DNA of 56,124 nt from Flavobacteriales bacterium (lineage in GTDB: Bacteria; Bacteroidota; Bacteroidia; B-17B0; Aurantibacillaceae): the NCBI GenBank assembly GCA_040382975.1, contig JBEIEI010000001.1, positions 1 through 56,124 of the forward strand, written 5' to 3'. Shown piece after piece: positions 53,555-56,124 of this stretch. The notes beneath the pieces were generated by a model, which saw only the letters and a list, made by a program, of their open reading frames with translations, made no database searches and had not been told where the DNA came from. Position 1 is the stretch's first letter; each line of letters starts with the position of its first letter. The position numbers and the translations under genes are program-made.

Positions 53555-55711
53555 TTATTTCATAATTACCAGCTCATCGATGATATTTTTAGCACCACCT
53601 AACTTGTCTATCACAAATAATACAAATCTAACGTCAACACAAATAGTGCGGTTTAAGTTCTTATCAAAAGCAATTTTGTGACTTAATGCTTCATAGTTAC
53701 CGTCAAACGCTAAACCAATTAGTTCGCCTTTGGCATTCATAACCGGTGATCCTGAGTTGCCACCGGTAATATCGTCTGTAGTAATAAATGAAACAACAAT
53801 ATCGTTAGTAGCCTTATCAATGTATTGGCCGTAATCTTTGTTCTTTATTAATTCAATTAATTTTTCAGGAGCATCAAATTCATAATCTCCCGGTTTGTAT
53901 TTTTCCATAACACCTTTTAAAGTACAAACGTAATTATAGTTAACGCCGTCTTTTGGTGAGTATGATTTTACATTGCCATAAGAAACGCGCATTGTTTGAT
54001 TAGCATCAGGGTAAAACTCCTGACCTTTTTTCATTTCTAAGATACCTTTTAAATATTTTTTATTTAAACTGTAAGTAGTACCGATAAATTCTGTATAATA
54101 TTTTCCGTAATTATTATTAAAATTATCTAAAAACTGAATTGCTGTTTTATATGCAAGATCTTTGTGAAGGGTTGCTGTATCAGGTTTTGCAATAAAGGCA
54201 TCCCATTTATCTTTATTAAGCATCATGGTGTTTTCAAACACTTGTTTAGCGAATTTATCGTAGGTTTCATCTTTTTCTAATGATCCATATCCGTTTTTAA
54301 GCATGGTGTAAAAATTTTCAGGTCTTTGGCTTGCATCAATATCTGTGTAAAATAGTTTAGTTACAATAGCTAAAATGTTTTTATCAGAAGCTATGTTTTC
54401 GCCTTTTATAAATCTGTCTTGCGAAGCTTTTAAATTGGCAACAATTTTTGTTACATTTTCGGGTCTAACCGGCGACTCGCTTAATGCTGCATCAAGCGCC
54501 TTTAAGCTGCCTGCAAAGGCCAATAAGGGCGAACCCATAATACCTTCAGTAATATAAACTCTGTGTTTTGCATATGGTCTCCAGTTATCATAGGCACTTT
54601 TAATGTTTACAAATAAATTATCATACTCGGGTTTACCTTTAGCCCAAGCTTCAAAAGCAGCTTCGTCTTTTTGTTTTTGACCAATTACATTATACTTAAC
54701 CAATTGTTTTGTTTCACCGTCAAAAAATTTCCAATAATTAGCAACCTGTGCATAGTAGCTCGCTAATTGAATTTTGTTGGCAGGATCCTTTAACATTTCT
54801 GTCATCATTAATTTTAAACGAGCATCGCGTAAACTAACAGTAAAAGGATTTTCGATATCGATCTTTAATTTAACACCATAAGACGTCTCGTACCTGTTTG
54901 TTCCACCAGGGTAACCATAGATCATTGAAAAATCGCCGTCTTTTAAACCTTTAATCGAAACGGGTAAAAAGTGTTTTGGAACGTAAGGAACATTGTCTGC
55001 GCTGTAATCTGCAGGTTTACCGTCTTTACTCATATAAACGCGAAAGATAGAGAAATCACCCGTGTGACGTGGCCACTCCCAATTATCAGTATCGCCACCA
55101 AATTTTCCGATACTCTCAGGCGGTGTTCCCACTAAACGCACATCAGTATATCTTTGGTAGGTAAATTGTAAAAACTGATTGCCTTTAAAAAAGCTGGCCA
55201 CTCTCATTTCATAACCAGTTCCTTCTGCTGCCTTGGCCGACATGCCAGCCAAAATACCCGGTAGTTTTGCTGCTAATTCGTTTGAAGGAATATCCTTAAT
55301 TTTTTCTACAACTTTATCTGTAACATCTTCAATTTTTATTAAGAACTGAACGCTTAGTCCTGGACTAGCAATTTCTTCTTGTTTTGATTTAGCCCAAAAA
55401 CCATCTTTTAAATAATTGTGTGCTACAGAGCTTGCAGCGGCAATACTGCCATAACCGCAGTGGTGGTTTGTAAAAACTAAACCTTCTTTGCTTACGATTT
55501 CTGCGGTGCAACCACCACCAAACAATACAATTGCATCTTTAATACTATTTTTATTAGCACTATATAATTGTTCCTTGGTTAGTTTAAGCCCTTTTTTAAC
55601 CATATCGGCATATGTTTTTTCGCCAATAAGTTGTACCAACCACATGCCTTCATCTGCTTTAACTGAAATAAAGCTGAGTGCAATAAATAAAATAAAGAAT
55701 AGTTTTTTCAT
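53555..55711 (-). CDS. S46 dipeptidyl peptidase (DPP7-like)
   Basis: ADEGMWL, TNHHCG, DNWEWPRHTGDF, YPDAN.T.R and ITGGNSGSPV. FDGN rather than FDRN at the S1 position suggests DPP7-type rather than DPP11-type specificity. Confidence 0.93.
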   Translation of the reverse strand: MKKLFFILFIALSFISVKADEGMWLVQLIGEKTYADMVKKGLKLTKEQLYSANKNSIKDAIVLFGGGCTAEIVSKEGLVFTNHHCGYGSIAAASSVAHNYLKDGFWAKSKQEEIASPGLSVQFLIKIEDVTDKVVEKIKDIPSNELAAKLPGILAGMSAKAAEGTGYEMRVASFFKGNQFLQFTYQRYTDVRLVGTPPESIGKFGGDTDNWEWPRHTGDFSIFRVYMSKDGKPADYSADNVPYVPKHFLPVSIKGLKDGDFSMIYGYPGGTNRYETSYGVKLKIDIENPFTVSLRDARLKLMMTEMLKDPANKIQLASYYAQVANYWKFFDGETKQLVKYNVIGQKQKDEAAFEAWAKGKPEYDNLFVNIKSAYDNWRPYAKHRVYITEGIMGSPLLAFAGSLKALDAALSESPVRPENVTKIVANLKASQDRFIKGENIASDKNILAIVTKLFYTDIDASQRPENFYTMLKNGYGSLEKDETYDKFAKQVFENTMMLNKDKWDAFIAKPDTATLHKDLAYKTAIQFLDNFNNNYGKYYTEFIGTTYSLNKKYLKGILEMKKGQEFYPDANQTMRVSYGNVKSYSPKDGVNYNYVCTLKGVMEKYKPGDYEFDAPEKLIELIKNKDYGQYIDKATNDIVVSFITTDDITGGNSGSPVMNAKGELIGLAFDGNYEALSHKIAFDKNLNRTICVDVRFVLFVIDKLGGAKNIIDELVIMK

Positions 55712-55730
55712 AGGATTTTTAAATAGGACA

Positions 55731-55738
55731 CAAAATTA
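55731..55738 (-). promoter_or_regulatory. -7 promoter element (TAATTTTG) for the S46 gene
   Basis: Exact TAnnTTTG match about 20 bp upstream of the ATG. Confidence 0.55.
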
Positions 55739-55890
55739 ACAATGATACTGATATGAAGTTAATTTTTAGATGAATAGCTTAATTTTTAGATGGTTTAGGC
55801 GAAATATTCTATAAACGAATTGCAGATGACAATTCAAACTAAGTTTTATTTAAAAACCAGTAATAAAATGTAACCTCGAAGGGAGTCGAA

Positions 55891-55933
55891 TGAGCGGGGC
55901 TTGGCCCGCCATCGCGAGAGAAAAACCTAGCGA
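55891..55933. repeat. 43-nt GC-rich double-hairpin insert at the tRNA T-stem/T-loop junction
   Basis: Minus strand TCGCTAGG-ttttt-CTCTCGCGA + TGGCGGG-ccaagc-CCCGCTCA; inverted copy of 55973-56011. Confidence 0.85.
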
Positions 55934-55972
55934 CCCATAACCTTCGGCTCCGGAAACCGAAACTCTATCCAG

Positions 55973-56011
55973 TCGCGAGGCTCTGCTCGCGATGGCGAGT
56001 TTACCTCGCCA
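55973..56011. repeat. 39-nt GC-rich double-hairpin insert in the tRNA D-loop
   Basis: Minus strand TGGCGAG-gtaaa-CTCGCCA + TCGCGAG-cagagc-CTCGCGA, two perfect 7-bp stems. Shares a 12-bp inverted core with 55891-55933. Confidence 0.85.
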
Positions 56012-56124
56012 TTGAGCTCAGGAAATGTTTCAAAATGATTTATCGAAATATTTCAGGATAAATTTTTTGAGATCCTCGGAATTCTAATTTTTTACTTTTC
56101 TTTCTAGAATAGTAGCATCGGACC

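What the first reader, a model, noticed from the sequence alone, without database searches (positions are those of the whole stretch)
55871..56018. tRNA-Arg(CCG) gene split twice by mutually complementary hairpin inserts at the tRNA elbow
Seen: three segments (55871-55890, 55934-55972, 56012-56018) join into an orthodox tRNA-Arg(CCG) body with a paired anticodon arm. The segments are separated by a 43-nt insert at tRNA position 53/54 (or 54/55) and a 39-nt insert at 15/16 (or 14/15). The inserts are inverted copies: CGCCATCGCGAG (55907-55918) pairs perfectly with CTCGCGATGGCG (55986-55997), and pairing extends imperfectly over most of their length. Established: the D- and T-loops contact each other at the elbow (G18-Psi55, G19-C56). 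Known bacterial tRNA introns are ribozyme-sized self-splicing introns, far longer than about 40 nt. Inference, three options: (a) an undescribed two-part intron-like system whose halves zip into one helix at the elbow and are excised; (b) a tRNA-derived ncRNA with an elbow extension; (c) a tRNA gene hit twice by a tiny REP-like element and now dead. tRNA scanners would probably miss it.
Basis: partly seen in the sequence, partly recalled or inferred. Interest (0 to 1): 0.85.

Follow-up and report, generated by a model that had tools for sequence, protein, structure and literature searches.

The report
Hairpin-hit dead tRNA in nuclease cassette
The "split" tRNA-Arg gene is a front-truncated spare copy of an intact tRNA gene next door, interrupted twice by one family of 40-base double hairpins and joined to a tiny DNA-cutting (GIY-YIG) gene in a tandemly repeated unit, so it is not an intron but likely the footprint of a small selfish element that lodges beside many tRNA genes in Bacteroidota.

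Summary
The inserts (39 and 43 nt) and the 12-bp inverted match are real and present in public DNA contigs, but the body is not a full tRNA: positions 1-8 are missing and the acceptor stem cannot form. An intact tRNA-Arg(CCG) lies on contig C43; a public contig joins C43 to the window through an ~85-codon GIY-YIG gene. The unit [GIY-YIG + hairpin-broken copy], about 420 bp, is tandemly repeated in four other runs. Both inserts are one double-hairpin family, usually landing after AA, which lies on the sense strand in the D-loop and on the antisense strand in the T-loop; their complementarity follows automatically, and 9 of 11 foreign T-loop inserts pair with insert 1 better than its neighbour does. 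A relative has the same cassette with the D-loop insert only; five have an empty site. Of 79 related nuclease genes, 64 lie within 300 bp of a tRNA, and hairpin family tracks nuclease clade. Not an intron. Likely a selfish nuclease-plus-hairpin cassette working like Ssn/NTS but not meeting the SRM motif; I found no description in print. The scan noted this module before on other genomes.

The parts
56030..56122 (-). 3' end (last 30 codons + stop) of a small GIY-YIG nuclease gene; its first 26 codons lie on contig C43:78-1 directly behind the intact tRNA-Arg(CCG). In-frame TAG at 56086-56084 in this assembly
   Evidence: 83% identity to the full G062 protein; PF01541; X1 contig joins C43 and C1; all 6 runs covering 56085 read a Leu codon instead of the stop
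56019..56029 (-). 11-nt spacer between nuclease stop and tRNA remnant; replaces tRNA positions 1-8 (no acceptor 5' strand, no promoter-like TAnnTTTG upstream)
   Evidence: nearly the same spacer in G062
56012..56018 (-). tRNA-Arg(CCG) positions 9-15
   Evidence: 7/7 identical to C43 gene
55973..56011 (-). Insert 1: double hairpin, unit A (19 nt) then unit B (20 nt), two perfect 7-bp stems, between A15 and C16 of the D-loop; no target duplication beyond a 1-nt ambiguity
   Evidence: (fold), same insert at same site in G062
55934..55972 (-). tRNA positions 16-53 incl. anticodon arm (CCG); G26T at 55961
55891..55933 (+). Insert 2: second member of the same double-hairpin family, reading A then B on the + strand (opposite to the tRNA), between G53 and T54; unit B stem decayed in this copy, perfect in variant contigs
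   Evidence: variants A55919T and A55929C in X2, X3, X8, X12; absent from the G062 copy
55870..55890 (-). tRNA positions 54-74 (T-loop, 3' acceptor strand); C72T at 55872; right end of the repeat unit
53555..55711 (-). Flanking host gene, peptidase S46 (not part of the element; marks the conserved locus PorZ - tRNA-Arg(CCG) - S46)
   Evidence: (PF10459, E 1e-224)

Best explanation
The feature is a 5'-truncated second copy of tRNA-Arg(CCG), interrupted by two insertions of one double-hairpin family, at the end of a ~420-bp unit [GIY-YIG gene + broken tRNA copy] that follows the intact tRNA gene, and this unit is likely a selfish cassette whose nuclease is predicted to nick single-stranded DNA beside its own hairpin. 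Shown: the layout, the intact gene, the tandem repetition in other populations, the single-insert state in a relative, empty sites in other relatives, the polarity of insertion (AA before unit A in 18 of 27 cases) and the tracking of hairpin family with nuclease clade. Inferred: (1) the cassette entered by strand exchange within the tRNA, bringing a tRNA piece that leaves one whole gene and one remnant, as tRNA-integrating elements do; (2) the D-loop hairpin came with the cassette and the T-loop hairpin was added later to the already dead copy (G062 unit 377 bp + 43 = 420 bp); (3) the nuclease, whose start codon lies 3 nt behind the tRNA, is expressed from the tRNA promoter by read-through; (4) nicking at the hairpins mobilises them and, with the 60-nt direct repeat, drives tandem gain and loss. 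The inserts are complementary because one polar element landed on opposite strands, not because they cooperate; they are not excised.
For: Intact gene C43:155-81. Join C43-GIY-window in one X1 contig; hairpin-bearing copy followed by a new GIY start in X2, X3, X8, X12; unit/flank contig depth 26.2/16.3, 10.4/6.1, 4.66/3.5-3.8, 46.1/20.8. G062: same locus, same junctions, D-loop insert only. Same tRNA directly upstream of S46 with no nuclease in G009, G012, G016, G020, G021, and with an unrelated 1.2-kb stretch in G023. 64 of 79 related nuclease loci have a same-strand tRNA within 300 bp, 17 isoacceptors, against roughly 1% expected per kb; 27 of the 30 best genus loci within 600 bp. Family inserts mapped in 16 of 80 loci: 12 T-loop, 4 D-arm. 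Removing a full double hairpin gives an ARAGORN tRNA in 0 of 27 cases. Insert 1 pairs better with 9 of 11 T-loop inserts from other genomes than with insert 2. All 28 loci with this hairpin family lie in one 37-row branch of the nuclease tree, 27 of 28 loci of a second family outside it; 9 changes vs 23 shuffled. 0 of 13 Y1-transposase loci carry the hairpin. Y3, Y14, R24, H28, E60 invariant in 6 of 6 proteins; model pLDDT 94.9 with nearest solved folds UPF0213 and Slx1. Precedent: SsnA cuts ssDNA a few nt upstream of its cognate hairpin (PMC11893778, section read).
Against: No biochemical test: cutting, substrate and mobilisation are inferred. Third-position identity of the nuclease pieces between G000 and G062 (0.65, 0.58) is like that of S46 (0.64), so there is no sign of recent horizontal transfer; old residence with repeated loss fits equally. 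The 37-row branch has support 86/87, not starred, on 78 columns, and kin share labels; 23 of 79 loci had neither hairpin family by my patterns. Target is not strict (9 of 27 flanks are not AA) and some hairpins lie outside tRNAs (L025, L026, L164, L171). Y1 transposases exist in G000 (2) and in 4 of 5 carriers and could act in trans. The window's own nuclease copy has a stop, X1's single unit is one base short (163 vs 164 letters), and about 87 nt of the gene's middle were not seen as sequence. No fold hit reached E 0.001.
Confidence: 0.8

Rival explanations
1. Two-part intron: the inserts zip into one helix at the tRNA elbow and are both excised to give a working tRNA-Arg(CCG).
For: MFE fold pairs the inserts (duplex -50.8 vs -38.2 kcal/mol for the local hairpins); sites lie in D- and T-loop; no target duplication.
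Against: Product would lack positions 1-8; intact gene adjacent; single inserts are the rule; double-hit copies in L068 and L075 use site 10/11 + T-loop in the same orientation; foreign inserts pair better; 0 of 27 excisions give a tRNA; the only 'skip 43' joints are in DNA runs and are the intact gene; the one RNA-library contig over the feature keeps insert 1.
Confidence: 0.02
2. The hairpins are REP/REPIN-like elements moved by a Y1 (HUH) transposase in trans; the GIY-YIG gene is a passenger or a host-kept nuclease that merely shares tRNA-flanking sites, and the partial duplication arises by ordinary recombination.
For: Polar insertion 3' of a short motif without duplication and a two-palindrome unit resemble IS200/IS605-type and REPIN elements (recalled; REPIN abstracts); Y1 genes are present in G000 and 4 of 5 carriers; solitary hairpins exist away from nuclease genes.
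Against: 0 of 13 Y1 loci carry the hairpin; carrier G084 (92% complete) has no Y1 match; hairpin family tracks the nuclease clade across tRNA types and host groups; copy number per genome is 1-4, not hundreds.
Confidence: 0.1
3. The cassette is domesticated: the read-through transcript (tRNA - nuclease - structured pseudo-tRNA) or the amplifiable array serves the host, for example as a structured ncRNA, a restriction device against incoming ssDNA, or a source of tRNA fragments.
For: Nuclease protein is more conserved than its third codon positions between G000 and G062; a 319-nt RNA-library contig (X15, depth 3.4) spans nuclease end and insert 1; SsnA modulates transformation (PMC11893778); SegB-driven amplification of tRNA genes has a function in phages (PMC13096335, abstract).
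Against: Closest relatives lack it; the copy accumulates changes (G26T, C72T, decayed hairpin B); layouts differ from locus to locus (upstream and downstream types, collapsed remnants); the amplified unit holds no whole tRNA; X16 and X17 show no cover, and DNA may be in the X15 library.
Confidence: 0.07
4. Assembly artefact at the contig end.
For: Feature lies within 260 nt of the contig end; the stop at 56085 is seen in no run laid.
Against: Inserts present in 5 of 5 DNA runs laid, whole stretch in one piece in X1; same structure in other genomes. The contig break is explained by the tandem repeat.
Confidence: 0.01

Closest known systems
Ssn nucleases (cd10448) with NTS/SRM hairpin repeats, SsnA of Neisseria meningitidis (PMC11893778; abstract, sections 8, 10, 12 and term passages read; 12 of 14 supplementary files searched)
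   Same: Single-domain ~85-95 aa GIY-YIG gene next to its own short hairpin repeats, with hairpin sequence differing by nuclease lineage; catalytic Tyr-Tyr-Glu spacing 11/46 here vs 11/47 (Y6, Y17, E64) in SsnA; the authors raise a mobile-element origin.
   Different: The published SRM pattern is not met (0 in the feature, 0 of 30 loci); hairpins come as A-B doublets, 1-4 per genome, inserted in tRNA copies; 'tRNA' does not occur in that paper's main text; cd10448 membership not tested.
Phage T4/T6 SegB homing endonuclease (PMC2330249 and PMC13096335, abstracts and outlines only)
   Same: Free-standing GIY-YIG gene among tRNA genes; recognises the conserved T-stem-loop motif; drives inheritance and tandem amplification of its region.
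   Different: SegB cuts dsDNA in phage genomes and has no cognate hairpin; here a minimal bacterial protein (TIGR01453 hit far below cut-off, 35 residues) nearest to UPF0213/Slx1 folds, with hairpin inserts and a truncated tRNA duplicate.
tRNA-integrating phages and islands (attL/attR; described in PMC1635311, passages read)
   Same: One whole tRNA gene at one end, a duplicated 3' part at the other, foreign DNA between.
   Different: Only ~380-420 bp, no integrase, a GIY-YIG gene instead, hairpins inside the duplicate, tandem copies.
REP/REPIN with RAYT; Rickettsia palindromic elements in tmRNA and M1 RNA (PMC3116915, PMC3337134 search listings; PMC2229807 passages)
   Same: Short palindromic doublets that insert as non-autonomous elements, sometimes in RNA genes.
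   Different: No link to Y1 transposase loci, low copy number, tRNA-loop targets, the hit tRNA copy is dead whereas RPE-bearing RNA genes are the resident genes.
tRNA introns (bacterial group I/II; archaeal bulge-helix-bulge) - recalled, no paper read
   Same: Sequence interrupting a tRNA body.
   Different: Host is a truncated duplicate; no Rfam intron or ribozyme match above chance; inserts are DNA-type palindromes shared across many tRNAs.

Membership tests
tRNA intron | Removal restores a complete tRNA gene | tested here: not met
tRNA intron | Ribozyme core or known intron family | tested here: not met
   4 chance-level Rfam matches, all far below gathering scores
tRNA intron | Spliced RNA product | tested here: inconclusive
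   3 RNA runs laid as contigs; 1 covers part of the feature and keeps insert 1; contigs cannot show absence
Ssn / SRM | Single-domain GIY-YIG of about 90 aa with catalytic Tyr, Tyr, Glu | tested here: met
   (on relatives' full proteins; G000 copy seen only in two pieces)
Ssn / SRM | Gene flanked by SRM consensus pattern | tested here: not met
   0 in feature, 0 of 30 loci, 1 in whole genome elsewhere
Ssn / SRM | Member of clade cd10448 / blast hit to SsnA | not testable with these tools
   no CDD library and no tool-supplied SsnA sequence; nearest solved relatives are UPF0213 and Slx1
Ssn / SRM | Sequence-specific ssDNA cleavage beside the hairpin | not testable with these tools
   needs biochemistry
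Seg-type homing endonuclease | GIY-YIG plus C-terminal DNA-binding region (TIGR01453-like, >200 positions) | tested here: not met
   35-residue match, 18.7 bits vs cut-off 56; protein is 85 aa
Seg-type homing endonuclease | Filled and empty alleles at one site | tested here: met
   G062/G000 filled; G009, G012, G016, G020, G021 empty
REP/RAYT | Repeats flank a Y1 transposase gene | tested here: not met
   0 of 13
REP/RAYT | High copy number in the genome | tested here: not met
   2 doublets here plus one on C76; at most 4 pattern hits per genome among 76
tRNA-integrating island | Whole tRNA plus duplicated 3' part bracketing the insert | tested here: met
tRNA-integrating island | Integrase gene inside | tested here: not met
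   unit of 377-420 bp holds only the GIY-YIG ORF

The most novel reading that the evidence does not exclude
A widespread, undescribed class of minimal mobile elements in which an ~85-aa Slx1/UPF0213-like GIY-YIG nuclease, not a HUH transposase or integrase, recognises its own double hairpin and catalyses its polar, duplication-free insertion into conserved tRNA loop motifs, integrating and amplifying the cassette while always leaving one working tRNA; each nuclease clade would have its own hairpin specificity.
Probability: 0.4. Interest if true: 0.8.

Novelty: new variant of a known kind. Interest (0 to 1): 0.5.

Why it matters
As a tRNA-biology finding it is ordinary: a dead copy, no new intron. 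As a mobile-DNA finding it is a clear case for a tRNA-lodged nuclease-plus-hairpin cassette, with filled and empty alleles, a one-insert and a two-insert state, copy-number variation in natural populations and a definable target. It offers a direct test of the open question whether small GIY-YIG nucleases spread their cognate hairpins (raised for Ssn/NTS), and a set of candidate sequence-specific ssDNA nucleases outside the published SRM motif. Practically, such units break assemblies at tRNA genes and produce false 'split tRNA' calls.

Tried and rejected
ARAGORN on the window: 0 genes; its intron mode at a low threshold gave only noise genome-wide. Rfam: nothing above chance. Sigma-70 promoter/terminator scan: 1 promoter-like site vs 1.5 expected, 0 terminators (not the right consensus for this group). 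Recent horizontal transfer between G000 and G062: not supported. Y1 transposase as linked mover: 0 of 13. Pattern CYCGCCAYCRSGAG gave many chance hits: of 26 listed matches about half were not hairpins on inspection, so I did not use its tally as prevalence. One of 9 genomes (G030, L029) was a chance hit in a coding gene. My automatic insert mapping missed the G062 insert and the second inserts in L068 and L075, found by eye. RNA runs X16 and X17 do not cover the feature; this is no evidence of silence. The protein atlas gave no answer, so no language-model look-alikes were obtained. Literature: nine searches (combinations of GIY-YIG, tRNA, hairpin, palindromic, tandem, Bacteroidota, Patescibacteria, Ssn) returned no description of tRNA-lodged GIY-YIG/hairpin cassettes; only listings were seen for most hits, subscription papers are not covered, and 2 of 14 Ssn supplementary files were not searched. 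PMC1564403: term passages only, nothing on tRNA-linked arrays.

Full report
Observation. On the minus strand the three segments match the tRNA-Arg(CCG) gene found elsewhere in the same genome (G000:C43:155-81, ARAGORN) at positions 9-15, 16-53 and 54-74, with two differences, G26T and C72T. The inserts are 39 nt (56011-55973) and 43 nt (55933-55891), and the 12-nt inverted match is exact. The region folds far better than shuffles (z -5.18) with the inserts paired. But positions 1-8 are absent: the 8 nt before the first segment match 1 of 8, the acceptor stem would have 3 mismatches of 7, and the insert-free sequence is not called by ARAGORN at default stringency. So the body is a truncated duplicate, not a gene.

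Context. In relatives the intact tRNA-Arg(CCG) lies between PorZ and the S46 peptidase gene. In G000 the tRNA is 80 nt from the end of C43 and the copy is about 105 nt from the end of C1. The C43 end reads as the first 26 codons and the C1 end as the last 30 codons of a small GIY-YIG protein. A single 2093-nt contig from run X1 runs intact tRNA - 163 nt - window 56124..55500 with both inserts, which shows the join. Contigs of X2, X3, X8 and X12 show an insert-bearing copy followed by another nuclease start, and the unit has higher contig depth than the flank in all four (26.2/16.3, 10.4/6.1, 4.66/3.5-3.8, 46.1/20.8; depth is a rough guide only). The unit is 420 bp in X2 and X12 (164 letters between), exactly the G062 unit (377 bp) plus the 43-nt insert, and 419 bp in X1. 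The tandem repeat likely explains the contig break. The in-frame stop at 56085 is read as Leu in all 6 runs that cover it. The organism is a member of the Bacteroidota by the PorZ neighbour and by the titles of nearly all related loci; the runs holding it are mostly lake and river metagenomes.

The inserts are one element family in opposite orientations. Each is two short palindromes, unit A (TGGCGAG-type) and unit B (TCGCGAG-type). Read A to B, insert 1 follows TCAA on the tRNA strand and insert 2 follows TCGAA on the opposite strand; both are followed by C. Among 27 full doublets in all loci held, AA precedes unit A in 18 (one locus counted in both directions). Among 80 loci examined, family inserts were mapped in 16: 12 at the T-loop of tRNA-Arg, His, Leu, Lys and Ser, always in the reverse sense, and 4 in the D-arm. 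G062 has the same locus and junctions as G000 but only the D-loop insert. Two other double-hit copies (L068, L075) have inserts at 10/11 and at the T-loop in the same orientation, are truncated and lie beside an intact gene. Insert 1 pairs with 9 of 11 T-loop inserts from other genomes more strongly than with its own neighbour. Removing a doublet produced an ARAGORN-callable tRNA in 0 of 27 cases. In the 11 other tRNA-Arg(CCG) loci where I saw such hairpins (G008, G014, G025, G028, G062, G069, G099, L068, L069, L070, L075) an intact gene is in the same locus. The zipping is therefore a by-product, and the intron reading fails.

The cassette is a family. 32 of 76 genomes of the genus have a match to the G062 nuclease at E 1e-8; of the 30 best loci 27 have a tRNA within 600 bp (the three misses include the window itself, whose tRNA is on the other contig). 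In the species-wide scan 240 stretches encoded a relative, the best 79 loci were kept, and 64 have a tRNA within 300 bp, all on the same strand, 52 upstream and 12 downstream of the nuclease, 17 isoacceptors; 21 of 79 hold 2-4 nuclease hits. These sets overlap and are not additive. A rough background is about 1% per kb. Two layouts recur: whole tRNA - nuclease - 3' remnant with hairpin (as here), and promoter + 5' piece with hairpin - nuclease - whole tRNA. On a tree of the 79 proteins, all 28 loci with this hairpin family fall in one 37-row branch (support 86/87, not starred) and 27 of 28 with a second family fall outside; 23 had neither; 9 changes against a shuffled mean of 23. Kin share labels, the alignment has only 78 columns and the second pattern is loose, so this shows tracking, not proven co-evolution. 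Five relatives have a clean empty site and the nearest one (G023) has an unrelated stretch. Third-position identity of the nuclease pieces between G000 and G062 equals that of S46, so recent transfer between them is not indicated. None of 13 Y1-transposase loci from G000 and four carriers has the hairpin.

Mechanism. Shown: layout, target polarity, independence of the inserts, tandem repetition, patchy presence. Inferred: the protein keeps the GIY-YIG catalytic set, folds confidently and is nearest to UPF0213 and Slx1 structures (all weaker than E 0.001). By analogy with SsnA, which binds its hairpin as ssDNA and cuts a few bases upstream (PMC11893778), it likely nicks beside the doublet; strand exchange at tRNA loop motifs would insert the hairpin or the whole cassette, whose tRNA piece leaves one whole gene, as for att-bearing elements (PMC1635311, passages). 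The T-loop hairpin was likely added later to the dead copy. The start codon 3 nt behind the tRNA, with a TAnnTTTG box (Bacteroidota promoter consensus, recalled) before the intact gene and none before the copy, suggests read-through expression; one RNA-library contig spans nuclease end and insert 1 at depth 3.4, which may be DNA. Amplification of tRNA regions by a GIY-YIG enzyme has a precedent in SegB (PMC13096335, abstract). I put 0.95 on 'dead duplicate, independent insertions', about 0.8 on 'selfish GIY-YIG-linked cassette' and about 0.5 on the nuclease being the direct mover.

Comparison and novelty. It works like Ssn/NTS (small GIY-YIG with cognate hairpin) but fails the SRM motif test, and clade membership could not be tested; it shares the tRNA target with SegB but lacks its size and has hairpins; it has the att-like layout without an integrase; it is not REP/RAYT-linked. 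Nine literature searches found no description of the tRNA-lodged form. I had reached the GIY-YIG reading (note) before opening the scan's earlier findings; these report the same module in at least eight other genomes and gave me the Ssn and SegB paper leads. They are unchecked notes and are not counted as support.

Noticed in passing
G000:C8:22400-23250 (L063): Another small GIY-YIG gene (PF01541) flanked on both sides by about seven copies of a different palindromic repeat, no tRNA nearby; the repeat happens to contain TTCGAC and AGCTCAA, which resemble tRNA T- and D-loop words.
   Followed up: no
G000:C76:6505-7150 (L066): GIY-YIG gene upstream of tRNA-Leu(GAG) with partial tRNA-Leu pieces carrying a CCCGATAGCTATCGGGA-type hairpin, plus one doublet of the family described here.
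   Followed up: partly
G000:C4:17290-17730 (L064): GIY-YIG gene about 105 nt behind tRNA-Ser(GCT), with a GC-rich palindromic stretch between.
   Followed up: no
L169 (G062:C18:73387-76400): Array of at least 12 tRNA genes in 1.5 kb, with one doublet of this hairpin family in a duplicated tRNA 5' piece and no nuclease nearby.
   Followed up: partly
L003 (G023:C4): G023 is 98% identical to G000 over 40 PorZ codons and the tRNA leader but 88% over S46, suggesting a recombination break at the tRNA; it carries a 1.2-kb unrelated stretch there.
   Followed up: no
L009 (G026:C112), behind tRNA-Arg(CCG): Collapsed remnant: first ~9 codons of the nuclease, a short inverted tRNA piece, then the tRNA 3' end.
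   Followed up: no
L025, L026, L164, L171: Solitary doublets of the same family outside tRNA genes; two relatives (G083, G087) have it at what looks like the same intergenic site.
   Followed up: no
L098, L103, L105, L115, L123, L128, L134, L143 and others: A sister doublet family (CGAGAC..GTCTCG + GCCGAC..GTCGGC) uses the same T-loop site and neighbouring positions, with a different nuclease clade.
   Followed up: partly
G000:C19:1-54: A tRNA-Arg(ACG)-like gene is cut off by the contig start within its T-loop, possibly another repeat-caused break.
   Followed up: no
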